Positions 81-46,078 of a stretch of DNA of 61,544 nt are shown here, piece by piece. Made by a program: the position numbers and the translations under genes. The stretch's first letter is position 1; each line of letters opens with the position of its first letter. The stretch is from Candidatus Enterousia avistercoris (GTDB lineage: Bacteria > Pseudomonadota > Alphaproteobacteria > Rs-D84). The notes beneath the pieces were generated by a model that saw only the letters and a program-made list of their open reading frames with translations, had not been told where the DNA came from and did not search any database. The DNA lies in NCBI GenBank assembly GCA_017694255.1, contig JADINC010000023.1:1-61544 (forward strand), read 5' to 3'.

Positions 81-1079
81 TCATGACATAACGTCCGTCA
101 ACAGCGCGTTCATATTTTCACGAAACTCTTCGCGGTCCGACGCCCAAACAACCTGGCGCATTAAAAACTTATACACATCATCCATTGTCAGATTTGGAAT
201 ACCTGCTGCTGCCACCACGCGCCGCCATGCGACGCGCGGATCAGTTAAATGGCCACGTCCACGACCTGGGAAAACCCATCGTCCATCCTGGGGCAAATCT
301 TGCAGCAACACCACCGCCGCATCAGACAACGGACGCGCACCCCATGTATAGTGGTTAAAATCCAAATCCCGCCACTGCATAGAAAACACCTGGGACTTTG
401 GCGCAAAACCATAGACCAGCATTAAAAACGCCGCACGTAATATCGGGGATGGTTCGCGTTTAATCGCCCGTATTAAACGCTGGAATCCAGATTTATTCAA
501 TGGTCGCACACGACGCGATTGTTCTATTTTGGGCAAATCAATAACTGGATTTTTTTCAACATAACCCATTTCGATTGCATACTTAAAAACACTCTGTACA
601 AATTCCTGCATACGCGCGGCAATCGCCCGGCCACCAATTGCCGCAATTACCGTTTCAACATCTTTTTTGGTTATATCAGACAAATTCATATCCAGCAATT
701 CCGACAAATGGCGCTGGATTGCACGTTCCAATTTATCACGCGAATAACTGCTGCGCCGCACCCGATTCGCCATATATGAATCCAAGAATTTACGCATTGT
801 AATTTTTTTGCGACGCACACGCGGCTTTTGCATCGCGCGCACCAACAATTCTGGCACAGCCCCACGTGCGGTTTCTATATCCATTTCTGGATAGTTTCCA
901 ATAATAATTCGACGATCCCGTCCATGTACACGTTTGCGAACAAAGAATGTTTTTACACCGCGACTAGTTACATACATACGCAGACGCGGTTCTGACAAAT
1001 CTTGGACAACATCAAAGCCCGTTGCCGGCGCTGGCAAATTATCCAAAATAAATGGATTAAAAAAGAATTGATGCGCCAT
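81..1079 (-). CDS. P4-type tyrosine-integrase-like protein (catalytic signature not evident, possibly inactive)
   Basis: ORF 81..1115, with the start trimmed to the ATG at 1079, which follows AGAGGA. The N-terminus (FNPFILDNLPAP..RLRMYVTSRGVKTFFVRKRVHGRDRRIIIGNYPEMDIETAR) resembles the arm-type DNA-binding domain of P4-family integrases. Where the R, HxxR and Y residues are expected, the sequence reads YGFAPKSQVFSMQW and LTMDDVYKFLMRQ. Confidence 0.6.
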   Translation of the reverse strand: MAHQFFFNPFILDNLPAPATGFDVVQDLSEPRLRMYVTSRGVKTFFVRKRVHGRDRRIIIGNYPEMDIETARGAVPELLVRAMQKPRVRRKKITMRKFLDSYMANRVRRSSYSRDKLERAIQRHLSELLDMNLSDITKKDVETVIAAIGGRAIAARMQEFVQSVFKYAIEMGYVEKNPVIDLPKIEQSRRVRPLNKSGFQRLIRAIKREPSPILRAAFLMLVYGFAPKSQVFSMQWRDLDFNHYTWGARPLSDAAVVLLQDLPQDGRWVFPGRGRGHLTDPRVAWRRVVAAAGIPNLTMDDVYKFLMRQVVWASDREEFRENMNALLTDVMS

Positions 1080-1203
1080 TATTTCCTCTTTTTTATTTTT
1101 CGCTATTTTATTCAATACATTACAGCATCCATATATTACCCCAACTGAACAATCACGATACGAGAGTTTTAATAAAAAATCTTTAACTTATCGCCAGTTG
1201 CTA

Positions 1204-5083: not shown

Positions 5084-5462
5084 CTTGTCATCCCGTGGCT
5101 TGACCACGGGACCCAGGTAATTAATGCTCTGTGCGCCAGCACAGACAACTTTCCTTGTCATCCCGTGGCCCGGGCCCCGCACTACACAGTTCTCCTTTCT
5201 TGTCATCCCGTGGCTTGACCACGGGACCCAGGTAATTTATGCTCTGTGCGCCAGCACAGACAACTTTCTTGTCATCCCGTGGCCTGACCACGGGACCCAG
5301 GTAATTAATGCTCTGTGCACCAGCACAGACAACTTTCCTTGTCATCCCGTGGCCTGGGCCCCGCGAAAACGTCAGTTTTCGTGGGTGGATGCAGACCACG
5401 GGACCCAGGTAATTTATGCTGTCGCACCGCGACACCACATTTGCACTTTGCACTTTGAAAAA
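5084..5462 (+). repeat. Palindromic repeat array 1 (5 units sharing the head cttgtcatcccgtggc)
   Basis: Heads at 5084, 5154, 5199, 5268 and 5338. The ~70-bp type-1 unit is cttgtcatcccgtggcttgaccacgggacccaggtaattaatgctctgtgcgccagcacagacaactttc. The 45-bp type-2 unit is ...gtggcccgggccccgcactacacagttctcctttc. The last unit carries a nested hairpin insert (cgaaaacgtcagttttcg) and a tail, gtcgcaccgcgacaccacatttgcactttg. Confidence 0.95.
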
Positions 5463-5475
5463 CCGCGACACAAAC

Positions 5476-5784
5476 CTACACCAACATATTCAGTTCATCA
5501 TATAAATCCCGCCAATCTGGATTATATTTTTCTATCAAATCTTTTTTCCAATTTCGTTTCCACTCTTTCAACCGCTTTTCGTGCCGAATAGCCTGCTTAA
5601 CATCTTCAAACCGTTCAAAATATACCAATTTGCAAACCCCATATCGACTGGTAAACCCCGGCGTCAAATGATTTTTATGTTCATATACACGCTGAGCTAA
5701 ATTACTGGTAAAACCTATATACAGTGTACCATTTCTATCACTGGCCAAAATATAAACATAGTAATATTTTTGAATCCCATACAT
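5476..5784 (-). CDS. GIY-YIG nuclease family protein (small stand-alone URI-domain protein)
   Basis: YYVYILASDRNGTLYIGFTSNLAQRVYEHK ... AIRHEKRLKEWKRNWK matches the GIY-YIG / COG2827-type small nuclease pattern. Confidence 0.85.
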   Translation of the reverse strand: MYGIQKYYYVYILASDRNGTLYIGFTSNLAQRVYEHKNHLTPGFTSRYGVCKLVYFERFEDVKQAIRHEKRLKEWKRNWKKDLIEKYNPDWRDLYDELNMLV

Positions 5785-5960: not shown

Positions 5961-6382
5961 CTTGTCATCCCGTGGCCCAGGCCCCGCACTACACAGTTCT
6001 CATTTCTTGTCATCCCGTGGCCTGGGCCCTGCGTTCCTTTCCTTGTCATCCCGTGGCTTGACCACGGGACCCAGGTAATTAATGCTCTGTGCGCCAGCAC
6101 AGACAACTTTCCTTGTCATCCCGTGGCCTGGGCCCCGCACTACACAGTTCTCCTTTCTTGTCATCCCGTGGCTTGACCACGGGACCCAGGTAATATCAAT
6201 TACATCCTTTCTTGTCATCCCGTGGCCTGGGCCCCGCGAAAACGTCAGTTTTCGTGGGTGGATGCAGACCACGGGACCCAGGTAATATCAATTACATCCT
6301 TTTTGTCATCCCGTGGCTTGACCACGGGACCCAGGTAATAAAACTTGTCGCGCAGCGACACCACATTTGCACTTTGAAAAAA
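5961..6382 (+). repeat. Palindromic repeat array 2 (7 units of the same family)
   Basis: Heads at 5961, 6006, 6042, 6112, 6157, 6211 and ~6303. It contains the same type-1, type-2 and composite units as array 1. It ends with the same tail, gtcgcgcagcgacaccacatttgcactttgaaaaaa. Confidence 0.95.
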
Positions 6383-6401
6383 GCCCCCACGGATGTGGGG
6401 G
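6376..6401 (-). terminator. Rho-independent terminator of the fibre-gene run
   Basis: cccccac-ggat-gtggggg (7-bp GC stem) is followed on the minus strand by a T-run. It lies 7 nt after the stop of 6408..8324. Confidence 0.8.
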
Positions 6402-6407
6402 AATCAT

Positions 6408-8324
6408 TCATTCTATCCAAATATCTGCATAACCGGTTGGATCGGTCGCACTGCCCACCGAAATCTGCAAGCGTTCCCCTGGAATCTTGCCACTCGAATC
6501 CAACAATTTGTAATTTCCACTATCACCAAACCCAACACTAAGCGTACCTGGATCAAGATTAGTGCCCGTACCTATTTGTATCGCATTCTCTGTGTTTGTA
6601 CTCGCACCAAATCCTAAAGAAATCGAATTGTTACCACCTGCTCCCGCTTCATTACCAACTACAACATTATTCGTCCCCCTAGCAAAAGCTCCCTTTCCAA
6701 TTCCAATAGAGTTTTCTCCAGACACCGCAGAACCCATGCCCAATGCAACACTATTTAGCCCTTCTCCCTTTGCATTTGCGCCCAGCGCAACCGCGCTTTG
6801 AACAACCGAAGCAGAGGCACCAATCGCGGTCCCAGAACGAGTTGCCGTCGCACGTGCACCATAAACAGTTCCACCAGGACCAGTCGTCACAGCATTTGTA
6901 CCAATAATAGTTGCAGACGTATAATCTCCAGCATTACCACCGCCCGTGGCAAACCCCCCCACACCTGTTGCAGTATTCGTCAATACCGTATCCGGCATAC
7001 GTTCATCGGGAATTTTTCCATCATTATCCAACAATTGATAAATTTTATCTGTGCCGAATCCAACATTAAATGTTCCCGCGGTTGAATTTGTCCCTGTTCC
7101 CAACTGTATTGCCCCCAACGCAGTCGATTTTGCATTCTGTCCAATTGCGATCGCAGATCCAGCCCCCGTTTCAGCCCTATAGCCCACTGCCGTTCCATAC
7201 TCAACCGTCGATTTTGCATTTGCACCAATTGCAACCCCTTGACCTGCAACATTAGCATTGGAACCGATTGCCACGGCTTCTTCTTCATTCGCAGATGCAT
7301 TCATTCCAACAGCAACATTCATAAATCCCGTTTCTGATGACTTTGCGGATTGACCAACAACCACAGATGCAACCGACCCACTTGCCGCATCACCGATTAC
7401 AACAGTACTATCCGCCGTAGCAGGCGTTGCCCCACCGGTACTGAGTGAACCTGTCCCCGTTGCGGTGTTTTCTAATTTTTTATCCAATGCGGCTTTGACC
7501 ACTTTATTTTGCACGGGGTTTGTACTGTCGGCGCTTAACGTCGCATCCACGGTTATTTCATCGGGTATTTCGGCCTTGGTCGCGTAAGTATCTGCGATAA
7601 CCCGGCCACTGGCGTCCTGGGTTGCCTTGGTCGCGCTGTCTGCGGTGGTTGCGCTGTTCACGGTTACGGCGCCATCCGCCGCCACCGTAATATCACCCCC
7701 AGATTTCACACCACCCAATGCCGCGGCCGTTGCCGCCGGCAGAGTATATTCTTCTGGCAACGCCGCCGATGTGATAAATCCACTATCATTAGTTAATTCA
7801 CTGGTTTTTGTTGGAACAGTAATATTCGCTGTTGCCGCTGTTGCAGAATTGGCTGTAAAGGTTGCAACCGCCGCTCCATTTTTCTGTATTGTCAATGTTG
7901 CATTATTAACAGTTGGAATATCATCTGCATCAGCCTTGGCATTTAATTCCGTTTTTGTGGCATAAGTCGTTGTAATAACATTACCAGACGCATCCTGGGT
8001 TGCCTTGGTCGCAGATGTTGCACTGGTTGCCGTATCTGCTGTTTCAGCGGCGGCAACTTTATCTATTTTTGTTGCAACACCACTGGCATTCACATAAATC
8101 GGATGTGTCGCATCCCCAACCGCGGTCCCGGCGGTGGCAACTTCTACTGCTGTACTTGCATTTTGCTTTGCATTTAATTCAGTTTTCGTTGCATAATCAC
8201 CCGCCGGCGCACGTGTGTCAATCTGCTGATCAACATAGCCCTGGGATGCAATATTTGCATATGCGCCCCCCACCACCATCATAGCTATAAATGAAACTGC
8301 GAAAATGCCCTTTGACTTTATCAT
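6408..8324 (-). CDS. Secreted fibrous repeat protein, paralog D (tail-fibre-like motifs plus YadA-head-like repeats)
   Basis: Signal peptide MIKSKGIFAVSFIAMMVVGGAYA. Contains IASQGYVD, two copies of ATKATQDASG(N/R)VI..TYATK, LTIQKNG...VPTKTSELTNDSGFIT and NPVQNKVVKAALDKK. The C-terminal half is two tandem modules of (A/S)(V/I)A(I/L)G.NA-type repeats, each ending AIQ(L/I)GTGTN..VGFG..LLD..GKIP.ER. Confidence 0.8.
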   Translation of the reverse strand: MIKSKGIFAVSFIAMMVVGGAYANIASQGYVDQQIDTRAPAGDYATKTELNAKQNASTAVEVATAGTAVGDATHPIYVNASGVATKIDKVAAAETADTATSATSATKATQDASGNVITTTYATKTELNAKADADDIPTVNNATLTIQKNGAAVATFTANSATAATANITVPTKTSELTNDSGFITSAALPEEYTLPAATAAALGGVKSGGDITVAADGAVTVNSATTADSATKATQDASGRVIADTYATKAEIPDEITVDATLSADSTNPVQNKVVKAALDKKLENTATGTGSLSTGGATPATADSTVVIGDAASGSVASVVVGQSAKSSETGFMNVAVGMNASANEEEAVAIGSNANVAGQGVAIGANAKSTVEYGTAVGYRAETGAGSAIAIGQNAKSTALGAIQLGTGTNSTAGTFNVGFGTDKIYQLLDNDGKIPDERMPDTVLTNTATGVGGFATGGGNAGDYTSATIIGTNAVTTGPGGTVYGARATATRSGTAIGASASVVQSAVALGANAKGEGLNSVALGMGSAVSGENSIGIGKGAFARGTNNVVVGNEAGAGGNNSISLGFGASTNTENAIQIGTGTNLDPGTLSVGFGDSGNYKLLDSSGKIPGERLQISVGSATDPTGYADIWIE

Positions 8325-8439
8325 ATCCGTATTCTACCTAAAAAAACTGTTTCGTTCCACTGTTCGTTTATCGCAATCTGTTTTTTTTACCTGTGTGCGG
8401 TGCACATTTTAACACCGCACACATATTGTTACGCCGTTA

Positions 8440-9891
8440 TTATTCGGCACCACCACGTGCGATAACTTCCCAAGAATAGTTACCCGCACCGGACGATACC
8501 AATACGCATTTGTTTTCGGAATCCGCACAAGCATCTGTTGGTGCCGGAATTGCTGCATTGGCGGTTGCCTGCGCTGCATCCGCGGCTTCCTGGGCGGCAT
8601 CTGCTGCATCTTGCGCCGCACCTGCAGCAGTGTTTGCACCGTCAGCGGTTGTCTTTACTTCATTGATAGCCCCAACAACTGTCTTGTTTGTTGTTGCCAA
8701 AGAGTTATCTGTTTTATCCTGTTTCAATGCCAGGTTTGCATCAGTCGCCATACCGGCAATTTCTTCCTTGGTGGCATATGTCGTTGTGATTACATTACCA
8801 GATGCGTCCGCCGTTGCACGTGCCGCTGTGGCATCTGAATCCAACTTGCCGGCCAAACCACTTGTCAAGGCAGTCGTTGTTGCAAATTCAGACGCATTAT
8901 GTGTGACGATGTCACCATAACCACCAATTGTTGACTCTACCGCGTCAACAGCACTTTGTGCACCGGTTGCCGTGCTCTGTGCAGCGGCGGCCTCGCCCGC
9001 TACTTCCTTGATAGCGGTCACAACTGTTGTCGCTGTTGTACCCATGTTTTCTGCTGAAACAGCGCCAACCTGACCTTCCAACGTCTTTGCAGCGTATGCC
9101 GCATTGGCATCGGTCTCGGTCACATAATCGTCCAAATCAGCCTGTTGCAACGCAGTATCGGCTTTGTCCAAAGATGCATTAATTGATGCATTCAGATCAC
9201 CTTCTGCAATCGTCCCATCAGTTATATCAGCACTGGTTACTGTACTTTTGGTCGCCAAAGTACCCAAACCAGAAACCTGAGTATTCGCAATTGTCGCAGC
9301 GGATGTAATATTACCAGTGCCATCTGTTGTTACGATATGGTTTGCTGCCTCTGCCCCCATATTTTTATCTTGCTTGTCTGTTTGCAATTCGGCAATGTCG
9401 GCTTCGGCTGCGTCCAAATCACTTTGAATTTGTTCCACAGTGTCGCTTGATGCAATATTTTCCGTCGCAGCAGTAATTGCGGTATTTACCGCCGCCGCAG
9501 ATGGATATTTTGTATCGTCTGTCTTGCCGGTGGCCCAACCCGCGGTATTAACCATATTTGTCTTTACCTGCATATCGGAAATCGCAGCCGGCTGAACCGC
9601 TGTATCTGCTTTTGTCCCCTGGGCTGCGGTTGCAAATTCAGATGCATTATGCGTCACAACATCGCCATAGGTTTCCATTGTACCCTGGATAGTGTCAATT
9701 TCGCCCTCGGCCGCTTCAACACGGCCATCTAACGCAGTAACGGTTGTGGTATCTGCCTTGGCCCCAATTGCAGATGTCAATGCCTTATTAATATCATCAA
9801 CATAGCCCTTGGACGCGATTTCTGCATGTGCGGCCCCGGTTGCCACCACGGCCAGCAAAGATGCAAATATACCTGCGGTTAATTTTTTCAT
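8440..9891 (-). CDS. Secreted fibrous repeat protein, paralog C
   Basis: Signal peptide MKKLTAGIFASLLAVVATGAAHA. Contains EIASKGYVD, two copies of YGD(V/I)VTHNASEFAT, ARATADASGNVITTTYATK and VVGAINEV. The C-terminus reads C-x6-C-VLVSSGAGNYSWEVI. Confidence 0.8.
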   Translation of the reverse strand: MKKLTAGIFASLLAVVATGAAHAEIASKGYVDDINKALTSAIGAKADTTTVTALDGRVEAAEGEIDTIQGTMETYGDVVTHNASEFATAAQGTKADTAVQPAAISDMQVKTNMVNTAGWATGKTDDTKYPSAAAVNTAITAATENIASSDTVEQIQSDLDAAEADIAELQTDKQDKNMGAEAANHIVTTDGTGNITSAATIANTQVSGLGTLATKSTVTSADITDGTIAEGDLNASINASLDKADTALQQADLDDYVTETDANAAYAAKTLEGQVGAVSAENMGTTATTVVTAIKEVAGEAAAAQSTATGAQSAVDAVESTIGGYGDIVTHNASEFATTTALTSGLAGKLDSDATAARATADASGNVITTTYATKEEIAGMATDANLALKQDKTDNSLATTNKTVVGAINEVKTTADGANTAAGAAQDAADAAQEAADAAQATANAAIPAPTDACADSENKCVLVSSGAGNYSWEVIARGGAE

Positions 9892-9954
9892 TTTTCTTTC
9901 CTTTCTTTGTTTTGTTGTTTTTTTATTTTTCTATTTTCCAATCCGTTTTCGACC

Positions 9955-12207
9955 TTAATCAGCAGGCGCCGTAACATTCGTCCACGCCAACTGCCCACCT
10001 GGCGTTATGGTCAACACACACAGCCCCGATTCCGCCATACAGTCATCATCTGGCTGGGGAACGGCCAACGTAGTAATTTGGTTGTCTGTTTCCGTTTTCG
10101 TGTATGTATCTGCTTTGTCCGCCTTGTTATTAACCTGGGTTTGCATTTGCGAAACCTGGTTACTGATCGCTTGGAAATTACCCTCGGTCGCCAGACCAGA
10201 TGTTTTTTCATTAACTTCGTTAATCGCATCTACCAGGTTCTGGGCCGAAACGGTCAAACTTTCCATAGTACCAATATCTGATTCTGCCGACGACACACGC
10301 GTTTCCAACGCATTTACATCGTCTGTATCTGCCTTGGCCCCCAGTGCGTTATATACCGCCAACGCCGATGGATATTGGGTATTTTGGGCCGTGGCATTAA
10401 TTTCACTAACCCGCGCCGATACATCTTGTTTCTTGTTCAAAGCCGATTCCGCTGTTGAAACGCGTTCGGTTAAACCTGAAATGCCCGATGTATTGGTGGC
10501 GACATTGGCGCTTAAATCATTTACAGATTTCACCAATCCCGATTCCGCGTTACCAACCGTTGTTGTTAATGCGCCAATACCCGATTCATTCGTATCCACA
10601 CGTTCTGTCAATGTTGCCAGATCGTCCGTGGCGTCATTCACGGCACCAAAGACCTCGTTCACGGCACCAACCAGGTTTGTTTTCTCGCCCGTGGCCAGGT
10701 TACCAACCGTGCCAATTGCGGCCGCATTTGTATCAACACGCCCGGTTAATGTGCTTAAATCTTTTTGGATTTGTTGCACCGTGCCATCGGCCGCCATGCC
10801 GCCAATCGCCTTATCCAGTTCATTAATCGCACCAACCAAATTATCTTTATTTTCCGTGGTCAATTCAGATTTTGCGCCGATATCTGTCAGTGCCTGTTGC
10901 GCGTGTGTGGCCGCGTTATTTGCAACGGTTTCTGTTGACTTAGGTGCATATGTTTTGTCCGCCACATCCTTGGTCAACATGTCCGCAGTCGCCGTGTCAA
11001 CATACGATTCGGTTGCATAGCCGGTTAATGCATCGCTGTCCAATTTGCCCGCCAAGCCAGATTCCAAAGCCGCAGTTGTGGCATATCCAGATAAAGAATC
11101 CGTCGTCGCGTATCCCGCTAATGATTCCTTGGTCGCGTATGTTCCTGCCACTTCTGCCGTCTTGGCATAGCCCGCCAAATCCGCTGACGTTAACATCCCA
11201 GAAATATCTGCATCTGTGGCATAGCCATCCAATTCGCCCTTGGTCGCGTATGTATCCGCCGCACTTTCCGTGGTTAAATAATCACCCAACGATTCGGTTG
11301 TTGCGTATTTAGATAACTCGCTGGCGTCGGCCTTGCCCGCTAATGATTCCTTGGTCGCGTATGTATCCGCCGCACTTTCCGTGGTTAAATAACCACCCAA
11401 CGATTCGGTTGTTGCATATTTAGATAACTCGCTGGCGTCAGCCTTGTTTGCCATTTGCCCCTGCAGGGTTGTTATATTACCCGCGTTCGTATCAACACGA
11501 CCGGACAATGTTTCAACCGCACTTTGTACCTGACTAGCCGTGGTTTGCGCCGCTTCGGCTGTTTGTTTTGCGGCACTGGCATCCCCGGCTGCTGTTGTTG
11601 CTGCGGCGGCGGCACTGGCTACATCAGCAACCAATCCATCTGAGTCATCACCAACGACCGTCTCTAATGCACCAACCGCCGTTCCCAATTCTTCCACATC
11701 AGACGTCGATGCTTTACCCGCCAATTCTGTTTTCGTTGCGTATGTTGTACCTGCCTCGGTCTTGGTCAACATATCACTTGTTGCGGCTGCAATATCGCCA
11801 TCTGTGGCATAGCCGTCCAATTCGCCCTTGGTCGCGTATGTATCCGTAATAACATTACCTGCCGCGTCCGCGGTTGCACGCGCCGCCGTGTCGCCCGTTC
11901 CCAACTTGCCCGCCAAACCCATGGTCACAGATTCCTGGGTGGCATACGTTTTTTTGGCGTCATCTTTGGTTAAATAATTTTCCAAATCTGCGCCAACGCC
12001 TTCGGACACAATTTGCTCTATACGTCCATCCAGACCATCAACCTGCTCGTCAACATATGTTTTGTCCGCCTTTTGGTCCAATGCTTCTTTGGTTGCGTAT
12101 GTTCTGTTACCATAATCCGTAGTAACCAACGTCGCCGCATTGGCCGCGCCGGCACTTAACAAAATCGCCGCCATAAACCCAGAAAAACGTACATTTCTTT
12201 TTTTCAT
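9955..12207 (-). CDS. Secreted fibrous repeat protein, paralog B
   Basis: Signal peptide ...AAILLSAGAANA. Contains ARATADAAGNVITDTYATK, three copies of NLV(G/D)A(I/V)NE(L/V), an internal 37-aa tandem duplication and QYPSALAV. The C-terminus reads C-x6-C-VLTITPGGQLAWTNV. Confidence 0.8.
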   Translation of the reverse strand: MKKRNVRFSGFMAAILLSAGAANAATLVTTDYGNRTYATKEALDQKADKTYVDEQVDGLDGRIEQIVSEGVGADLENYLTKDDAKKTYATQESVTMGLAGKLGTGDTAARATADAAGNVITDTYATKGELDGYATDGDIAAATSDMLTKTEAGTTYATKTELAGKASTSDVEELGTAVGALETVVGDDSDGLVADVASAAAAATTAAGDASAAKQTAEAAQTTASQVQSAVETLSGRVDTNAGNITTLQGQMANKADASELSKYATTESLGGYLTTESAADTYATKESLAGKADASELSKYATTESLGDYLTTESAADTYATKGELDGYATDADISGMLTSADLAGYAKTAEVAGTYATKESLAGYATTDSLSGYATTAALESGLAGKLDSDALTGYATESYVDTATADMLTKDVADKTYAPKSTETVANNAATHAQQALTDIGAKSELTTENKDNLVGAINELDKAIGGMAADGTVQQIQKDLSTLTGRVDTNAAAIGTVGNLATGEKTNLVGAVNEVFGAVNDATDDLATLTERVDTNESGIGALTTTVGNAESGLVKSVNDLSANVATNTSGISGLTERVSTAESALNKKQDVSARVSEINATAQNTQYPSALAVYNALGAKADTDDVNALETRVSSAESDIGTMESLTVSAQNLVDAINEVNEKTSGLATEGNFQAISNQVSQMQTQVNNKADKADTYTKTETDNQITTLAVPQPDDDCMAESGLCVLTITPGGQLAWTNVTAPAD
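11241..11447. repeat. Near-perfect in-frame tandem duplication (period 111 bp) inside paralog B
   Basis: tggtcgcgtatgtatccgccgcactttccgtggttaaata... starts at 11241 and again at 11352. It encodes SELSKYATTESLG(G/D)YLTTESAADTYATK... twice. Confidence 0.9.
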
Positions 12208-12229
12208 GTCCTTAATCCTAAAAAATCAA

Positions 12230-13948
12230 TTACAGCGCAACATCATACCACATCGTAGCACCAGATCCATCCGTGCCCAGAACCTTGTTATTTCCTGCCC
12301 CTGTGGTCGTCACCATACCTGAAATTTCCGTCTTGGTCGCGTATGTAGTGGCAATATTATTACCCGCCGCATCCGCAGTTGCCCGTGGCGCCGTGCCGTC
12401 TGTTGTGTTAACGTACGTTGTGGACGCCTCTGTCTTGGTCAGCATATCCGCCGTCGCGGTCTGCAAGGCTGTAATATTTGTTTCGTTCGTCGCCACACGC
12501 GATGTCAAACCATCCGCCGCAGACTGCGCCGCTTCGGCTGCTTTTTGCGCTGCCTCTGCCCCGGCAACCGCCGTTGCAATTTTACCAGCCAAACTGGTCA
12601 GACCATTTTCTTCATCATTCACGACCGAATCTAACGCCGCCACATCATCAGAGACTTCCGTCAATTGTGCGGACGTTGCATAACCCGCCAATGCCGTCGT
12701 AACCGCCGACGTAGACGGATAATCCGTATCGCTGTTTGTTAACGTTGTCTTTTTATTTGCCACATCTTCCTTGCCGGTCAACGCCTCTCCCATATCGCCC
12801 GCGACAATATCTGCAACCTTTGAATCAACTTCACCCTTGGTATATGCATCAGTAATACCATATCCCGCCAGCGTTGTTGACTTGTCAGCCTTTTTCGCCA
12901 ATTCCTCATTCACATATTGCGTATTTGCTTTGGCTGCAACTTCCCGTTCTAATTCATCTACATCTGCCTTGACCGCGTATGTATCCGTAATAACATTACC
13001 CGCCGCATCAGCTGTTGCCCGTGGCGCTGTGCCATCTGTTGTGTTAACGTACGTTGTGGATGCTTCGGTCTTGGTCAAATAAGAATCCAATTCGACACCC
13101 GCCAAATCGCCGACCATACCTTCGACTTCTTCCCTTGTGGGGTAATTTGCCAAATCGCCCGATGTAACCATATCAGCGGTCGCCGTGGTTAATTCATCCT
13201 TGGTAGCATAGGTATCCGCAACATCTGCGACTGCATCCGCAATTGCAGCATTCATATCTTCCAGTGATACATATCCATCACCCACGATATCATCAACCGC
13301 GATAATTGTCGTCTTGTCGCCATTACAATCACGAACGATATTTCCACCTTCGACAATAAAATCACAGCCCGCACCCAATTCATAGCGCAATTCGTCAACA
13401 TCAACCAAAATTTCGTTATTTTCAATTGATACGAAATTATTACCAGTGGTCAAAACATCTTGCTTTGTATCAACCGCGCCCTGTAAACCTTCGACATCGC
13501 GCAGCAACACATCAATCTGTTCCCGCAAACCTTCCAGTGTACCGGTATCAATTTCGCCACCAGACGAACCGCCACCCGAAACGGACGAACCACTACCCGG
13601 GTTTTGCGGACGCAACGAACTGCCCCCACTGACAGATGTACCGCCACCCAAATAATGACCAATCGACAAACGTGGTGATGTTGCCACCCGCCCAGACGTT
13701 GTTGAACCCGCACTAATTGAAGCACTGGATCCCGACTGGTTTGATGTCGGTGTTACCCGAACCGATCCACCGCGCACAGATGTTGCTGCACGCGCCCCAG
13801 AATTCGCCGAAGACGCACTGGCAGCACTGGAATATGTACCACTGCCCCCCAAGTTGCGCACTGACGATGCCGCATGCGCGCCAGAAACCATCCCAGCGCA
13901 CAAAACACAAACAATTGTTAATGTTGATATTTTCAGTTCTTTTTTCAC
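12230..13948 (-). CDS. Secreted fibrous repeat protein, paralog A
   Basis: GTG start. Signal peptide ...VCVLCAGMVSGAHA, followed by a Ser/Gly-rich tract. Contains two copies of TKTEASTTYVNTTDGTAPRATADAAGN(V/N)I..TYA(V/T)K, TLAGYGITDAYTKGEVD and DYPSTSAV. The C-terminus reads NKVLGTDGSGATMWYDVAL. Confidence 0.8.
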   Translation of the reverse strand: MKKELKISTLTIVCVLCAGMVSGAHAASSVRNLGGSGTYSSAASASSANSGARAATSVRGGSVRVTPTSNQSGSSASISAGSTTSGRVATSPRLSIGHYLGGGTSVSGGSSLRPQNPGSGSSVSGGGSSGGEIDTGTLEGLREQIDVLLRDVEGLQGAVDTKQDVLTTGNNFVSIENNEILVDVDELRYELGAGCDFIVEGGNIVRDCNGDKTTIIAVDDIVGDGYVSLEDMNAAIADAVADVADTYATKDELTTATADMVTSGDLANYPTREEVEGMVGDLAGVELDSYLTKTEASTTYVNTTDGTAPRATADAAGNVITDTYAVKADVDELEREVAAKANTQYVNEELAKKADKSTTLAGYGITDAYTKGEVDSKVADIVAGDMGEALTGKEDVANKKTTLTNSDTDYPSTSAVTTALAGYATSAQLTEVSDDVAALDSVVNDEENGLTSLAGKIATAVAGAEAAQKAAEAAQSAADGLTSRVATNETNITALQTATADMLTKTEASTTYVNTTDGTAPRATADAAGNNIATTYATKTEISGMVTTTGAGNNKVLGTDGSGATMWYDVAL

Positions 13949-13972
13949 AGCGTACTCTCTCTACCTGAGTTA

Positions 13973-14002
13973 ATGATAACATTTTTTCGCGAATCGGGTC
14001 AA
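13973..14002 (-). promoter_or_regulatory. Candidate sigma70 promoter for the fibre-gene run
   Basis: The minus strand reads TTGACC (14002..13997), an 18-nt spacer, then TATCAT (13978..13973). It lies about 25 nt upstream of the GTG start of paralog A. Confidence 0.35.
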
Positions 14003-14014
14003 CACCATTTTGTG

Positions 14015-14737
14015 TTAAAATTCATATCTGATACCAATTGATATAGAATTATCCAAAATAAAGTCGACTTCGTTTTCAAACCAAACTAAATCATTATCTT
14101 CTGTAACCAGATCATCCACGCGATGATGATACCCGGTCATGCCCGACAAACGGTACCGCAAATCCAGCACCAGATTTTCATCCAGTTCATACGAATACCC
14201 CAGCATTATTCCAGCCATTGGTGCAAAGCCATATTCTGTACGATCGGTTCCATCGGCATATCCAATCAAATCAATTTTTTCGATTGGCATGGCGGCACCA
14301 ACACCCGCACCAACATACAACCCGTTTGTAAAGTCATAGTACAAATTAGCCATAGCATATGGAATCTGTAAACTGTATTGCGCCATTACGTCCGCATCTT
14401 CGAAATACCCCAGATACCCCAGTTCCAGTTCCGCACGCCAGAAATATGCAAAACGCGTACCGCCAAACAAACTGCCACCGAATACTGGTTCAAACGAGAA
14501 ATCATCTGTCCCATATTCTTTATCACCTTGGAAATTATCGCTGGTATCATATTTATTTTTCCAGTTCCAGAACCCCAGTTCTGCACGTCCACCGACATAC
14601 CAACCGGTTTTTGCCTTGTCCGTGTAATTATATGTAACGCGATAACCGCCATCACCCGTACGGGTTAAATAACTGGGCGCCGCAACCGCCGGTGCAGTCA
14701 ACCCAACTAAAATTGCCAAAGATACTATTTTTTTCAT
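14015..14737 (-). CDS. Small outer-membrane beta-barrel protein (OmpA-like/OmpW-like barrel family)
   Basis: Signal peptide MKKIVSLAILVGLTAPAVA, alternating aromatic/Gly beta-strand pattern and terminal IGIRYEF. Start trimmed to the ATG behind AAGGAAAGGAAA. Confidence 0.75.
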   Translation of the reverse strand: MKKIVSLAILVGLTAPAVAAPSYLTRTGDGGYRVTYNYTDKAKTGWYVGGRAELGFWNWKNKYDTSDNFQGDKEYGTDDFSFEPVFGGSLFGGTRFAYFWRAELELGYLGYFEDADVMAQYSLQIPYAMANLYYDFTNGLYVGAGVGAAMPIEKIDLIGYADGTDRTEYGFAPMAGIMLGYSYELDENLVLDLRYRLSGMTGYHHRVDDLVTEDNDLVWFENEVDFILDNSISIGIRYEF

Positions 14738-43291: not shown

Positions 43292-44917
43292 TCAGTTCAA
43301 TGGTGCCCCCCAATGCTGTTGGATTGTACGTTCCGTATCCATTGGGCTAATTAACACCTGGGGCGTTAATATAACCACCAAAACATCACGCGTGGCCGAT
43401 GTTTCACGCGACCCCGACAGCGCCATAAAGTCAGGATCACCCAAACCATAACGCGTATCATTATTTTCTTGTTTTTCAAACCCAGACACCACCAGCATTT
43501 GTCCAGATTCCATAATCACCTCTTGCATAAAGCTGCGTTCTTCAACCTCTGGCAATTGCAGTGTTACTTCGCCGATTGTCTGTTGTTGCATACGCAACAG
43601 TTCACGCACCGACATTCTGAACAGCAACAAAATCTTGCCATTTTCCAAAACATTCGGCAACAATTGCATTGAAAAACCTGTTTCCAAATCGTCCTGGTCC
43701 ACGGTACTTGATTCCACAGTTGTAAAGTTCCGCGATTCAAACCGCTTGATATAGCCTGTTGTACGCGTATTATTCACCGGCGCGACCCGATTATTACGCG
43801 TTGTAACACCCACGTTTGTAACCAGCGATACCTTACCCTGCTTTGCCAATGCCTGGATTAACGCATCGGTTCCCGCCAAACCTGACAAAGATCCATTTTT
43901 AATCTGATCCTGGGTATAGGCCCCAGAAACCTCTGTATTTCCTTCCATATGTGTGGCCCCGGTTATTGCCGATACCGAATTAGACAACACCGCGATATTC
44001 ATGGAATTAGCCTCTGTATTGGTCAAATTATTCTTTGGATTTGCAACAATATTTAATCCAGATGCAGAATTAATTGCCGCTGCCAAATTCAACCCAAACG
44101 CCGAATCATTTGATATAGAAACTTGTAAAACTTTTACATCAATCGTCACCAATTGCGACAATCGCTTGTTCTGGCGTTCAATATAATCGCCAACACGTGC
44201 CAATATAGATGGCGGCGCCGTCACTGTTATTGTTCCCAAACTGCGCGATACAGTAAATGATGCATTATCACCATCCCCGATAATGGTTTCCAATGCACTT
44301 TCAATTTCATCCCATTCTTTTAATGTTGATTCCAACGATACCGTATTCCCATCGTCTGTTTCCACCGCCGTCTGGTACGACACATCCGTCCCCAGCGCAT
44401 ACAGCGTAAACGTCCGTGTTTCCGTTTCATAAAACACAATCGCGGACTTATCATAATACCACAACAAATCTAAATCTGTTGCCACCTGGGACAGCAATCC
44501 CGACAATTTTCCGGTATATGCAATATTTATTGTTTTTTTCAATTTTTCTGTGTCAATTTGACTGTCTATCTTCACAGGTATCCCAGTAATTGCCGTAACA
44601 TTATTTGCCAATTGCTGCAAACTAACAGGCTCGTTCAGCAAAATCGTAATCCCAGTATCTGTTTCGAATTGCGACGGCAAATTATTACGATGTTCCAACA
44701 GCGTCGACGACGCCCCCAGCCACACCCCTTCGGACATAGAAACCGTATCACCACTGGCAACCTTGGCCCGTGGGTTCTTAGACATTTCGAACGCATCATA
44801 TGCATTGATAAAATCCTGGTCCACAGAAGACGCAACCTTGGCGGACTCTTTGGTGGCGCATGCTGTCATCACCGCGCACAGGCCGCACATTATGAAAAAT
44901 TTTATTGGTTTGCTCAT
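43292..44917 (-). CDS. Lipoprotein secretin (type IVb-pilus PilN/BfpB/TcpC-like)
   Basis: Lipobox AVMTAC. C-terminal secretin domain (VSLVTNVGVTTRNNRVAPVN...GFSMQLLPNVLENGKILL...MLVVSGFEKQ...RDVLVVILTPQVL). Confidence 0.7.
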   Translation of the reverse strand: MSKPIKFFIMCGLCAVMTACATKESAKVASSVDQDFINAYDAFEMSKNPRAKVASGDTVSMSEGVWLGASSTLLEHRNNLPSQFETDTGITILLNEPVSLQQLANNVTAITGIPVKIDSQIDTEKLKKTINIAYTGKLSGLLSQVATDLDLLWYYDKSAIVFYETETRTFTLYALGTDVSYQTAVETDDGNTVSLESTLKEWDEIESALETIIGDGDNASFTVSRSLGTITVTAPPSILARVGDYIERQNKRLSQLVTIDVKVLQVSISNDSAFGLNLAAAINSASGLNIVANPKNNLTNTEANSMNIAVLSNSVSAITGATHMEGNTEVSGAYTQDQIKNGSLSGLAGTDALIQALAKQGKVSLVTNVGVTTRNNRVAPVNNTRTTGYIKRFESRNFTTVESSTVDQDDLETGFSMQLLPNVLENGKILLLFRMSVRELLRMQQQTIGEVTLQLPEVEERSFMQEVIMESGQMLVVSGFEKQENNDTRYGLGDPDFMALSGSRETSATRDVLVVILTPQVLISPMDTERTIQQHWGAPLN

Positions 44918-44953
44918 CTCTGCTTCTCCTACGGCAAAATCAAATCGTTAAAA

Positions 44954-45898
44954 TTATTCTTCGGTTGTAGATATCACCAACACACGATTACCCTTGTAAA
45001 ACTTTGCATACGGTATCGGGGTTGCGCGCGCAAAATTACGCACCAATGCCGACGCCACATCGACAAAGCGTCCTTTGAACACGGCGCTGGCCTCTATCGG
45101 GTATTCACGCGACGTTGCCCAAATCAAATCCCATCCCTCTTTATTGCACCAATCCTGCAAGACTTCGCGCAATGTCTGGCCACTGGCAACAACCCATGAA
45201 CGCACCTGGTCGGTTAGCACCGGCGCCGGTTCTGCATCCGCAGAAATATCAACCGCGATTTCTGCATCCAGACTAACATCTGTGGCACCACTTGCCGTAT
45301 CTGTTTCTATATCTGCATTAACCGCGGCAATTTCTTCATCTGTTGCGCCCATTTTCGCCATAAACGCGGTATACCCATCACGATATTGCGTACAATCATT
45401 TCGCCCACTGCGCGCAACCGTCAGAACAGTACCCCCATCATCTTCTAACATTTCACGCCCCAGCAGTGGCATTTCTGCCCCACTGTTGCACGCATCATCA
45501 AATCCCGCCGGCACCTGGGCACCATGCAACATATTTGCACCACCCGACCAACCACCATAACCCGTACTATCCGTCCCCAGGTTGAAATTATTTTCCACAA
45601 CCAAATCAGAACCAATTTTCGAAACAATTCTGATATTATCTTGCTGTTTTTTACCACTGCATGCACCATCATCACATGCAATTTCCACGTCCGCATCCGA
45701 CCCCGCAATTGGCCACACCGGCACTTCTTGGACCACGGGTTGTGGTTCAGAATATTCGACATACTGTGTTTCAACTGGCACGACTTCTTGGGTATAAAAA
45801 ACCTCTGACGTGACGACCTGGGGCAAAGCATTTTCCGCAGCAAAGCAATACCCTGCCGCGGTTGCGAACATTGCGACAATTAAAATTTTACGGAACAT
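44954..45898 (-). CDS. TcpQ-domain protein (PilL/TcpQ-like secretin partner)
   Basis: Signal peptide MFRKILIVAMFATAAGYCFA. C-terminus WVVASGQTLREVLQDWCNKEGWDLIWATSREYPIEASAVFKGRFVDVASALV...YKGNRVLVI fits the TcpQ C-terminal domain pattern. Confidence 0.6.
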   Translation of the reverse strand: MFRKILIVAMFATAAGYCFAAENALPQVVTSEVFYTQEVVPVETQYVEYSEPQPVVQEVPVWPIAGSDADVEIACDDGACSGKKQQDNIRIVSKIGSDLVVENNFNLGTDSTGYGGWSGGANMLHGAQVPAGFDDACNSGAEMPLLGREMLEDDGGTVLTVARSGRNDCTQYRDGYTAFMAKMGATDEEIAAVNADIETDTASGATDVSLDAEIAVDISADAEPAPVLTDQVRSWVVASGQTLREVLQDWCNKEGWDLIWATSREYPIEASAVFKGRFVDVASALVRNFARATPIPYAKFYKGNRVLVISTTEE

Positions 45899-46078
45899 AA
45901 ACGTGTCCTTTCCTGTAATTTTTACCATTATTATTATAATTATTATAGCAACTTGACCGAATCTGTGCAAGATTAAAACGCACCTGGTGCATCTATTAAC
46001 TTAAAATCGCACGAATCGGTAAAAGATGTTATACTGGTCCCGAAAACAACAAACAATTATCCCAAGGATATAAATAAA

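What the first reader, a model, noticed from the sequence alone, without database searches (positions are those of the whole stretch)
6408..14737. Operon-like run of four Sec-signal-bearing proteins built from phage-tail-fibre-type modules, with no phage and no known anchor or secretion domain
Four consecutive minus-strand genes (13948 down to 6408, with gaps of 22, 63 and 115 nt) encode proteins of 572, 750, 483 and 638 aa. A candidate promoter lies before the first and a strong terminator after the last. All four proteins are rich in Ala, Thr, Gly and Asp.

Each starts with a classical signal peptide (..GAHA, ..AANA, ..AAHA, ..GAYA). All four share the module A.(A/Q)DA(A/S)G(N/R)(V/N)I..TYA(T/V)K, six copies in total.

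Individual members carry strings I associate with phage tail-fibre and receptor-binding proteins:
- TLAGYGITDAYTKGEVD
- NLVGAINE(L/V)
- (K/Q/D)YPS..AV
- LTIQKNG..VPTKTSELTNDSGFIT
- NPVQNKVVKAALDKK
- LLD..GKIP.ER(L/M)
- a terminal VL.....G...W, preceded by C-x6-C in two of them

There are no capsid, terminase, tail-tube or baseplate genes nearby. None of the four has a YadA anchor, an autotransporter barrel, an RTX/T1SS signal or a sortase-like or lipobox signal. A small OMP-barrel gene lies immediately upstream on the same strand.

This looks like a family of domesticated tail-fibre-like surface fibres whose export across, and attachment to, the outer membrane is unexplained.
Basis: partly seen in the sequence, partly recalled or inferred. 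Interest (0 to 1): 0.85.

Follow-up and report, generated by a model that had tools for sequence, protein, structure and literature searches.

The report
Variable phage-like surface fibre operon
A tiny-genome gut bacterium (Candidatus Enterousia) keeps, at one fixed chromosomal site, a rapidly varying operon of exported fibre proteins built from phage tail-fibre and adhesin-head pieces; they are probably its attachment fibres, but how they cross and hold on to the outer membrane is unknown.

Summary
Four minus-strand genes encode proteins of 572, 750, 483 and 638 aa with Sec-type signal peptides. They share a 17-aa module (six copies) and are bracketed by a promoter-like site and a terminator.

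The window is a chromosomal contig of the chicken-gut MAG Candidatus Enterousia avistercoris (Alphaproteobacteria, order Rs-D84, genomes around or below 1 Mb). There is no prophage.

The layout [quoted passage not shown] sits between pal-ftsEX-tolB and rbfA-lepA in every related locus examined.

The phage link is real but modular:
- A 55-aa module of P4 is about 78% identical to repeats in phage-contig fibre proteins.
- The GYGITDAYTK segment matches crAss-like phages.

No trimeric-autotransporter anchor, S74 domain or lipobox is present. Conspecific strains are 97% identical in the flanks and P1, but only 58-70% identical in P3 and P4.

My reading is hypervariable, mosaic, probably trimeric surface adhesins. 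The closest analogue is the Bdellovibrio MAT fibres, whose anchoring is also unsolved. I rate it a new variant of a known kind. Export and anchoring remain inferred.

The parts
14015..14737 (-). Small OmpA/Opa-like outer-membrane beta-barrel (240 aa from M11). It lies directly upstream of the P1-type gene in all 11 genome-collection loci (L003-L012, L017) and in the three conspecific loci.
   Evidence: PF13505 in 9 of 12 orthologues; C-terminal ...RYEF; signal peptide
13973..14002 (-). Sigma-70-like promoter candidate with an extended -10, in the OMP-P1 spacer.
   Evidence: 10 of 12 matches, TG before the -10. Consensus match only.
12230..13948 (-). P1 (572 aa), always the first fibre gene. 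Order of parts: signal peptide, basic Ser/Gly/Arg-rich conserved region, coiled coil, small beta domain with C195/C208, mosaic shaft, C-terminal hairpin cap.
13604..13870 (-). P1 residues 27-115: a lineage-wide conserved N-terminal region (SVRxLGGxGTY ... RxATxPRLSIGxYLGG). Net charge +7, pI 12, on an otherwise acidic protein. AF2 pLDDT is below 35. Candidate cell-proximal anchor.
   Evidence: (171 cluster representatives at E<=1e-10, always at the N-terminus)
12701..12829 (-). P1 residues 374-416: the 'TLAGYGITDAYTKGEVD' module, shared with crAss-like phage proteins and weakly with annotated tail fibres. It is also the only part matched in Clostridia and Termititenax genomes.
9955..12207 (-). 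P2 (750 aa): coiled-coil/repeat fibre with a length-polymorphic repeat core and a C-x6-C hairpin cap.
   Evidence: (phrog_2589 tail protein, 8e-13)
11238..11446 (-). 111-bp (37-aa) tandem repeat inside P2. This is the site of the 750 / 1106 / roughly 1500 aa length difference between near-identical strains.
8440..9891 (-). P3 (483 aa): Ala-rich fibre with 'EIASKGYVD' directly after the predicted cleavage site and a C-x6-C hairpin cap (residues 448-483, window 8443-8550).
6408..8324 (-). P4 (638 aa), the last gene: phage-type repeat modules in the N-terminal half, two YadA-like heads, and the conserved terminal tag ...SVGSATxPTGYADIWIE.
7755..7919 (-). P4 residues 136-190: the module 'IPTVNNATLTIQKNG..ANITVPTKTSELTNDSGFIT', 75-82% identical to repeats in phage-like fibre proteins.
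6501..7472 (-). P4 residues about 285-432 and 455-608: two left-handed beta-roll YadA-like head domains. Each is followed by '..SVGxxxxxNYxLLDxxGKIPxER'.
   Evidence: BpaC 7o23, 3.8e-11; YadA 1p9h, 2.6e-8; block-mean pLDDT 73-97 over this range apart from a dip to about 59 at the inter-head linker, residues 441-450; Foldseek 7o23, 2.4e-10; 3s6l; 1p9h; EibD; AtaA
6384..6401 (-). Intrinsic-terminator-like hairpin (7 bp, 6 GC) plus a T-run, directly after the P4 stop codon.

Best explanation
This is a lineage-specific chromosomal operon of the Rs-D84/Enterousia alphaproteobacteria. It encodes a set of Sec-exported, elongated, probably trimeric mosaic fibres that act as variable surface adhesins.

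**Build of each protein (shown)**
- A paralogue-specific conserved signal peptide and N-terminal motif.
- A shaft assembled from interchangeable modules: coiled coil, short phage-fibre repeats and YadA-like beta-roll heads.
- A conserved short C-terminal beta-hairpin cap, which in P2 and P3 is closed by a C-x6-C pair.

**Proposed pathway (inferred)**
1. The chains cross the inner membrane by the Sec system.
2. They fold and trimerise from the C-terminal cap in the oxidising periplasm.
3. They reach the surface by an unidentified route.
4. They are retained through the basic, conserved N-terminal region of the first protein, P1. This may involve the acidic OmpA/Opa-like barrel always encoded next to it, or LPS.

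The distal heads and phage-type modules would bind surfaces of a partner cell or the host gut. Recombination between repeated modules and between strains keeps P2-P4 hypervariable.
For: **Gene structure and export**
- Genes, signal peptides and shared modules.
- The proteins are absent from curated families.
- They are strongly acidic and rich in Ala, Thr and Gly, and AF2 predicts long helices and beta-rolls.

**Adhesin and phage modules**
- YadA-like heads in P4.
- Phage-shared modules with high identity.
- YadA-like heads also occur in phage fibres.

**Genomic setting**
- Fixed chromosomal position and conserved gene order, with the barrel directly upstream of P1, in all 11 genome-collection loci and the three conspecific loci.

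**Variability**
- Termini are conserved and middles are mosaic with variable length.
- Between conspecific strains the flanks and P1 are 97% identical, P3 about 70%, P4 58-68%, and P2 varies in length.
- DNA-level repeats are shared between paralogues.

**P1 N-terminal region**
- It defines at least 171 cluster representatives and is always N-terminal, on proteins of 119-1095 aa.
- It is the only basic segment.

**Context**
- Enterousia genomes are reduced, lack standard sugar, amino-acid and peptide transporters, and are proposed to depend on a partner (PMC12306168).
- Functional precedent: Bdellovibrio MAT fibres (PMC10769870).
Against: - No experiment or expression data exist; the organism is uncultured.
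- Trimerisation was not modelled, because only monomer AF2 was available. The P1 model is poor (mean pLDDT 41).
- No outer-membrane translocator or anchor is recognisable. The adjacent barrel is too small to be a pore, and its adjacency could be mere synteny within the tol-pal neighbourhood.
- The foldon-like reading of the C-terminal cap found no statistical support.
- Signal peptides were judged by heuristics only.
- Some length variation, and the split P2 in L022 and L023, could be assembly or sequencing artefacts in repeats.
Confidence: 0.55

Rival explanations
1. The four (or 1-7) gene products are not independent fibres. They join end to end into one long segmented fibre, as T4 gp34-gp37 do. 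P1's N-terminus would be the cell-proximal end, the P4-type C-terminus the distal end, and the number of genes would set the fibre length.
For: Positional grammar across the loci:
- The first gene always has the unique P1-type N-terminus.
- The middle genes have 'IASxxYVD' directly after the cleavage site and a hairpin cap at the C-terminus.
- In 9 of the 10 loci where the last gene is on the contig, the last gene ends ...IPVGS....IW[VI][EQ].
- The one-gene locus L017 (941-2386) fuses a P1-type N-terminus to a P4-type C-terminus.
- Both termini of each paralogue are conserved while the shafts are shuffled.
- Only P1 has an anchor-like N-terminal region.
Against: - The covariation test on 13 contig-matched P3/P4 pairs was uninformative: cap loops vary while the P4 N-terminus is invariant.
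- Locus L006 ends with a cap-type gene.
- Conserved termini are equally well explained by export and folding requirements.
- No structural model of a joint exists.
Confidence: 0.2
2. They are periplasmic or envelope-structural coiled-coil proteins, such as Lpp-like spacers or a division/envelope scaffold. On this view they never cross the outer membrane, and their position next to pal-tolB-ftsEX reflects function.
For: - Sub-threshold alanine-zipper / Lpp-OprI hits.
- No outer-membrane export device found.
- Conserved neighbourhood with tol-pal and ftsEX.
Against: - Hypervariability between conspecific strains is typical of exposed proteins, not envelope scaffolds.
- YadA-like adhesin heads and phage receptor-binding-type modules are present.
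- The proteins have no lipobox (sequence).
- Fibres of 480-1500 aa far exceed the width of the periplasm.
Confidence: 0.1
3. The fibres are released or displayed through the PilN-type type IVb secretin encoded 29 kb away, or through a T2SS elsewhere in the genome. They would then be soluble or loosely bound adhesins or colonisation factors rather than anchored fibres.
For: - A secretin (TIGR02520, 2e-72) with a TcpQ-like partner lies in the same window.
- Slender folded fibres could pass through a secretin channel.
Against: - There is no genetic linkage between the secretin and the operon.
- No pilus ATPase or pilin genes are seen in the window.
- The conserved P1 N-terminal region suggests retention on the cell.
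Confidence: 0.1
4. The operon is a remnant or accessory locus of a prophage, gene transfer agent or tailocin, and the fibres assemble on particles in the cytoplasm.
For: - Phage-type modules.
- PHROG tail hits for P2.
- An integrase-like ORF at 81-1115.
- Alphaproteobacterial GTAs do keep fibre genes at separate loci (my own knowledge).
Against: - All members in all loci carry conserved Sec signal peptides.
- The operon sits between housekeeping genes at the same site across genera.
- No capsid, portal, terminase or tail genes occur in 61.5 kb.
- Full-length proteins do not match any of 50,697 phage genomes.
Confidence: 0.03

Closest known systems
Bdellovibrio bacteriovorus MAT (mosaic adhesive trimer) fibres (Caulton et al. 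2024, PMC10769870)
   Same: - A multi-gene family in a diderm bacterium.
- Sec signal peptide.
- Long chimeric fibres combining phage tail-fibre/tailspike-like and adhesin-like modules.
- One conserved end and diversified remainder.
- The anchoring partner and the outer-membrane route are unknown in both.
- Both organisms live in contact with other cells (proposed, not shown, for Enterousia).
   Different: [quoted passage not shown] Here only P1 has a conserved N-terminal region, and it is Ser/Gly/Arg-rich and predicted disordered. P2-P4 have only 'IASxxYVD'.
- No S74 chaperone-protease domain is present.
- Here the genes form one syntenic operon with a fixed order next to a small OMP, and the C-terminal caps are conserved rather than diversified.
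- Sequence homology to the MATs could not be tested.
Trimeric autotransporter adhesins (type Vc; YadA, BpaC, BoaA, EibD, AtaA)
   Same: - Signal peptide.
- Ala-rich coiled-coil stalks.
- P4 has two YadA-like left-handed beta-roll heads (sequence E=4e-11 to BpaC; Foldseek E=2e-10).
   Different: - The defining C-terminal 4-strand anchor that forms a 12-strand barrel (PF03895) is absent from all four proteins and from the 120 listed P4 homologues.
- The C-termini are 20-35-aa soluble hairpin caps.
- The export mechanism therefore cannot be type Vc.
Phage tail fibres / fibritin-like fibres (crAss-like and other gut phage fibre proteins; T4 gp34-37 as a multi-gene fibre)
   Same: - Shared short modules: GYGITDAYTK, TLTIQKNG...SELTNDSGFIT, NPVQNKV, LLDxxGKIP.
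- YadA-like heads also occur in phage fibres.
- Several consecutive fibre genes.
- A small C-terminal hairpin cap.
   Different: - Every protein here has a Sec signal peptide.
- The operon is a fixed, conserved chromosomal locus without any virion genes.
- Full-length proteins find no match in phage genomes.
- Foldon homology is not supported.

Membership tests
Trimeric autotransporter adhesin (type Vc) | C-terminal YadA-type membrane anchor (PF03895; four beta-strands per chain) | tested here: not met
   No hit in Pfam or NCBIfam for any of the four proteins. None of the 120 listed P4 homologues carries it, though many carry PF05658. The C-termini are short soluble caps.
Trimeric autotransporter adhesin (type Vc) | YadA-like head (left-handed beta-roll) and coiled-coil stalk passenger | tested here: met
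   P4 only. PF05658 scores 23.4 bits, just below the cut-off of 25. PDB sequence hits: BpaC 3.8e-11, YadA 2.6e-8. AF2 block-mean pLDDT is 73-97 over residues 285-610 apart from the inter-head linker, with Foldseek hits to 7o23, 3s6l, 1p9h, 2xqh and 3wp8.
Bdellovibrio MAT superfamily | [quoted passage not shown] | tested here: inconclusive
   Signal peptides are present. No N-terminal domain is shared by the four proteins. P1 has a conserved 90-aa Ser/Gly/Arg-rich region with pLDDT below 35. P2-P4 pass straight into the shaft. No MAT sequence was available for a direct comparison.
Bdellovibrio MAT superfamily | S74 chaperone-protease or diversified globular tip at the C-terminus | tested here: not met
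   No Peptidase_S74 hit. The C-termini are conserved 20-35-aa caps.
Bdellovibrio MAT superfamily | Trimeric fibre displayed on the cell surface | not testable with these tools
   Only monomer structure prediction was available. The organism is uncultured.
Phage tail fibre (virion component) | Encoded within a phage or prophage structural module; assembled in the cytoplasm, with no signal peptide | tested here: not met
   Housekeeping neighbours at the same site across genera. Conserved signal peptides. No full-length match in 50,697 phage genomes.
Phage tail fibre (virion component) | Sequence modules shared with bona fide phage fibre proteins | tested here: met
   P4 136-190 is 75-82% identical to repeats in P0182, P0189, P0238, P0244, P0255 and others. 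Of the proteins sharing P4 modules, P0264 hits PHROG tail families. P0188 lies on a 59.9-kb contig with an endolysin. The P1 374-416 region matches crAss-like phages at 7e-8.
T4 fibritin foldon | C-terminal ~27-aa beta-hairpin trimerisation unit homologous to [23 protein letters not shown] | tested here: inconclusive
   The motif resemblance is from memory. AF2 predicts a terminal hairpin in P1 and P4 at low confidence. However, a profile of 25 caps finds no foldon chain in the PDB, and hhalign against the fibritin C-terminus gives probability 0.2%.
Lpp/OprI alanine-zipper lipoproteins | Lipobox plus family-level profile match | tested here: not met
   Hits are far below the cut-offs: 16-17 bits against 23-43. 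There is no [LVI][ASTVI][GAS]C lipobox.
OmpA/Opa-like small beta-barrel (upstream gene only) | PF13505/PF01389-type 8-stranded barrel, signal peptide, C-terminal aromatic residue | tested here: met
   9 of 12 orthologues hit PF13505 (best 5.4e-11), 5 hit Opacity and 3 hit OmpA_membrane. All end ...RYEF...RYIF or ...NYMF. The window copy itself is below threshold.

The most novel reading that the evidence does not exclude
The operon may encode a cellular counterpart of a multi-gene phage long tail fibre. On this reading the products join end to end: the cap of protein n binds the 'IASxxYVD' N-terminus of protein n+1. The result is one segmented surface fibre. It would be rooted by the basic N-terminal region of P1, possibly on the co-encoded OmpA-like barrel or on LPS, and tipped by the P4 heads. 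Its length and specificity would be tuned by gene number and module shuffling. It would serve as the attachment organelle of a partner-dependent bacterium with a genome of about 1 Mb or less, and it would cross the outer membrane by a route that belongs to no described secretion type.
Probability: 0.15. Interest if true: 0.85.

Novelty: new variant of a known kind. Interest (0 to 1): 0.62.

Why it matters
Rs-D84/Enterousia bacteria are widespread in animal guts. Their genomes are around or below 1 Mb, they lack respiration and standard nutrient transporters, and they are suspected to live attached to a partner, but nothing is known about how.

A conserved yet hypervariable fibre operon takes up close to 1% of such a genome. 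That makes it the obvious candidate for the attachment device, and it gives concrete targets for antibodies, FISH-linked imaging and partner identification.

More generally, together with the Bdellovibrio MAT family it suggests that bacteria repeatedly recruit phage-fibre and TAA-head modules into Sec-exported surface fibres. The outer-membrane passage and anchoring of such fibres fit none of the numbered secretion systems. The positional grammar of this operon (unique first N-terminus, unique last C-terminus, adjacent small barrel) offers a tractable way into that open question.

Tried and rejected
**Curated families.** Pfam, NCBIfam and PHROG scans of the four proteins found no family above cut-off.

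**Whole-protein phage matches.** tblastn of full-length P1 and P4 against INPHARED phages found nothing at 1e-5. Only short segments matched.

**Foldon hypothesis for the C-terminal cap.** A profile against PDB returned only noise (thermitase, lectins, hirudin). hhalign against the fibritin C-terminus gave probability 0.2%. I dropped it as a homology claim.

**P1 structure prediction.** Mean pLDDT was 41, so I did not use the model for fold searches.

**PDB sequence searches.** Searches with P1, P2, P3 and the barrel gave nothing significant.

**Covariation of the P3 cap with the P4 N-terminus.** The test on 13 contig-matched pairs was uninformative.

**Other candidate parts in the window.**
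- No further fibre paralogues.
- No translocator-like family among the unannotated envelope proteins.

**Confirming that contig L021 is a phage.** megablast against phages found no match. An endolysin PHROG hit supports a phage origin only indirectly.

**Literature.** A search for an existing description of such fibres in Rs-D84/Enterousia found none.

**Considered and rejected.**
- Prophage, GTA or tailocin remnant: rejected because of the signal peptides and the fixed housekeeping context.
- Canonical TAA: rejected because there is no anchor.
- Lipoprotein: rejected because there is no lipobox.

Full report
**1. What is in the sequence**

The four ORFs exist exactly as described:
- P1, 12230-13948, 572 aa, GTG start
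- P2, 9955-12207, 750 aa
- P3, 8440-9891, 483 aa
- P4, 6408-8324, 638 aa

All are on the minus strand, with spacers of 22, 63 and 115 nt. Each start codon has a purine-rich ribosome-binding-like stretch upstream.

A promoter-like site with an extended -10 lies in the 66-nt spacer upstream of P1 (14002..13973). A GC-rich hairpin followed by a T-run lies at 6401..6384, directly after the P4 stop. Promoter-like matches over the whole region are no more frequent than in shuffled sequence, so the promoter is a candidate only.

The proteins are rich in Ala, Thr, Gly, Asp and Ser and strongly acidic, with pI 4.0-4.4.

All four N-termini have the charge, hydrophobic core and AxA features of Sec/SPI signal peptides. 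This is a heuristic check, because SignalP was not available.

The module A.[AQ]DA[AS]G[NR][VN]I..TYA[TV]K occurs six times. The paralogues also share 56-74-nt DNA repeats at 61-95% identity.

**2. Source and context**

P1 is identical to MBO8425096.1 of the chicken-faeces MAG Candidatus Enterousia avistercoris, and the window is that 61,544-bp contig. Enterousia belongs to the alphaproteobacterial order Rs-D84. Its members have genomes mostly below 1 Mb, no TCA cycle or respiratory chain and no standard sugar, amino-acid or peptide transporters, and they are proposed to depend on a partner organism (PMC12306168).

The window is ordinary chromosome. It carries lepA, rbfA, pal, ftsEX, plsC, tolB, EF-P, dnaN, uvrC, dnaJ, gyrB, dnaA, dprA, sufBD, gatCAB and other housekeeping genes. 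There are no capsid, portal, terminase or tail genes.

The only phage-type gene is an integrase-like ORF at 81-1115, which lies beyond lepA and rbfA. A PilN-type type IVb pilus secretin with a TcpQ-like partner lies at 43292-45970.

**3. Conservation of the locus**

The 11 loci fetched from other Rs-D84/Enterousia MAGs come from chicken, yak, roe deer, buffalo and other sources. Wherever the contig extends far enough, the arrangement is the same: tolB - plsC - DUF218 - ftsX - ftsE - pal | small barrel -> P1-type gene -> 0 to 6 further fibre genes | (GIY-YIG) - rbfA - lepA.

The housekeeping neighbours are 53-92% identical to the window. The barrel is 34-70% identical. The fibres are only 27-59% identical, and only in parts.

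The barrel is an OmpA/Opa-type 8-stranded protein. PF13505 hits 9 of 12 orthologues, and all end in an aromatic residue.

**4. Architecture of the fibres**

Within each paralogue class the signal peptide, the first few mature residues and the last 20-35 residues are conserved. The middle differs in length and content.

*P1.* After its signal peptide P1 has a region conserved across the lineage: SVRxLGGxGTY ... RxATxPRLSIGxYLGG (residues 27-115).
- It is Ser/Gly-rich and contains seven Arg and no acidic residue, giving pI 12.
- AF2 predicts it without structure, with pLDDT below 35.
- In a library of 1.84 billion proteins it retrieves 171 cluster representatives at E<=1e-10. It is always at the N-terminus, on proteins of 119-1095 aa.

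*P2-P4.* These start with 'IASxxYVD' directly after the predicted cleavage site. The window's own P2 deviates from this.

*C-terminal caps.* P1-P3 end in a short [C-x6-C]VL.....G...W..[VI] motif. AF2 draws this as a beta-hairpin at low confidence. I suspected a fibritin-foldon relationship, but profile and hhalign tests gave no support.

*P4.* It ends in a different conserved tag, ...[SP]VGS....Y..IW[VI][EQ]. Residues about 285-610 are two YadA-like left-handed beta-roll heads:
- Sequence hits to BpaC (3.8e-11) and YadA (2.6e-8).
- Block-mean pLDDT 73-97 across the heads, apart from a dip to about 59 at the inter-head linker.
- Foldseek hits to BpaC, BoaA, YadA, EibD and AtaA.

None of the four proteins, and none of the 120 listed P4 homologues, has a YadA anchor. 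Similar anchorless YadA-like heads are common in phage and giant-virus fibre proteins.

**5. The phage connection**

Full-length P1 and P4 have no tblastn match in 50,697 phage genomes at E<=1e-5. Individual modules do match.
- The P1 'TLAGYGITDAYTKGEVD' segment matches crAss-like phages at 67% over 36 aa, E=7e-8, and matches annotated tail fibres more weakly.
- The P4 module 'IPTVNNATLTIQKNG...ANITVPTKTSELTNDSGFIT' is 75-82% identical to repeats in 800-1070-aa proteins that lack signal peptides. Some of these hit PHROG tail families. One is encoded on a 59.9-kb contig that has almost no Pfam hits and carries an endolysin two genes away.
- The NPVQNKVV segment matches Bacteroides phages only weakly, E 0.04-0.4.
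- P2 hits PHROG tail families, best 8e-13.

The fibres are therefore mosaics that exchange modules with phage fibres. They are not captured phage genes.

**6. Variability**

L001 is a near-identical strain (99.8-100% identity elsewhere). It differs only in P2, which is 1106 aa there against 750 aa here. The difference sits at a 111-bp tandem repeat.

Two other conspecific strains, L022 and L023, are 97.2% identical over the 12.6 kb that includes the flanks, the barrel, P1 and the first 300 aa of P2. Downstream of that point they break into segments of 76-94% identity and unalignable stretches. P3 is about 70% identical and P4 58-68%. Identity returns to 99.4% after the operon.

In those two strains P2 is about 1500 aa but split by a frameshift in the repeat region. 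That could be an error, a pseudogene or phase variation. Assembly collapse in the window's P2 cannot be excluded.

This pattern of conserved flanks and termini with shuffled interiors is what is expected of an exposed, recombining adhesin or antigen locus.

**7. Positional grammar**

Across 13 loci:
- The first gene always has the P1-type N-terminus.
- The middle genes have 'IASxxYVD' N-termini and hairpin caps.
- In 9 of the 10 loci where the last gene is on the contig, the last gene ends with the IW[VI][EQ] tag.
- The one-gene locus L017 fuses a P1-type N-terminus to a P4-type C-terminus.

This is compatible with two readings. In one, the fibres are independent and their termini are conserved because export and folding require it. 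In the other, they assemble end to end like T4 gp34-37.

A small covariation test on 13 contig-matched P3/P4 pairs was uninformative.

**8. Best explanation and limits**

I read the operon as encoding Sec-exported, probably trimeric, mosaic surface adhesins of a partner- or host-associated bacterium with a reduced genome.

What is shown:
- the gene structure;
- the conserved signal-peptide-like N-termini;
- the module sharing with phage fibres and TAA heads;
- the absence of known anchors;
- the fixed chromosomal locus;
- the strain-level hypervariability.

What is inferred:
- trimerisation;
- folding nucleated at the C-terminal cap, with a disulfide formed in the periplasm;
- surface display;
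- retention through P1's basic N-terminal region, possibly on the acidic barrel or on LPS;
- the adhesive function.

The route across the outer membrane is unknown. The 8-stranded barrel cannot be a pore, and the secretin in the window is unlinked.

**9. Comparison with known systems**

The closest functional analogue is the Bdellovibrio MAT family (PMC10769870). These are signal-peptide-bearing chimeric trimeric fibres with phage-like parts. They are displayed on the surface, and their anchor is unidentified.

Membership is not established. The conserved ~130-aa beta-rich N-terminal domain of the MATs and their S74 or globular tips are not seen here, and no MAT sequence was available for a direct comparison.

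The proteins are not TAAs, because the anchor is absent. They are not virion fibres, because they carry signal peptides and sit in a housekeeping context.

**10. Verdict**

I rate it a new variant of a known kind, of clear interest for the biology of Rs-D84 bacteria and for the unsolved question of how such fibres are exported. Interest: 0.62.

Noticed in passing
window 5084-5364 and 6035-6380: Arrays of 69-92-nt palindromic REP/MITE-like units (CTTTCTTGTCATCCCGTGGCC...GACCACGGGACCCAGGTAAT) flank a small GIY-YIG gene (5476-5784) just downstream of the operon. The copy arrangement differs in the near-identical strain L001.
   Followed up: partly
window 81-1115 (-): Tyrosine-recombinase / phage-integrase-like ORF (Phage_int_M 8e-8, Arm-DNA-bind_3 3.5e-6) at the left edge of the contig, beyond lepA. 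Whether an integrated element lies off the contig end is unknown.
   Followed up: partly
window 43292-45970 (-): PilN-family type IVb pilus secretin (TIGR02520, 2e-72, below the curated cut-off) with a TcpQ-like gene upstream. No pilin or ATPase genes are nearby. This is notable in a genome of about 1 Mb or less.
   Followed up: partly
window 55915-57507 (-): A 530-aa protein with a signal-peptide-like N-terminus and an OMP-like C-terminus (...ISIGANFVF). It has no Pfam or NCBIfam hit and could be an uncharacterised large outer-membrane protein.
   Followed up: partly
window 11238-11446; L001 11742-15062; L022 11742-16255; L023 11742-15969: P2 is 750 aa here and 1106 aa in a near-identical strain. 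In two other conspecific strains it is about 1500 aa but split by a frameshift. All the differences sit around a 111-bp tandem repeat. The cause could be real length or phase variation, or assembly collapse.
   Followed up: partly
window ~8392-8423 (P3-P4 spacer): A perfect 10-bp hairpin (GTGTGCGGTG-N10-CACCGCACAC) with no following U-tract lies between P3 and P4. It may be an RNA processing or stability element, or an attenuator.
   Followed up: no
L017 941-2386: In a buffalo-rumen MAG the whole operon is reduced to a single 481-aa gene. It combines a P1-type N-terminus, 'EEKATWNAKQ...GITISNG' phage-like repeats and a P4-type C-terminal tag.
   Followed up: partly
window 60029-60640 (-): A second small OMP_b-brl/Opacity-type barrel (PF13505, 5.6e-7; weak Rickettsia Adr-like hit). 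It is unrelated in sequence to the barrel next to the operon (BLASTP E=0.05).
   Followed up: yes
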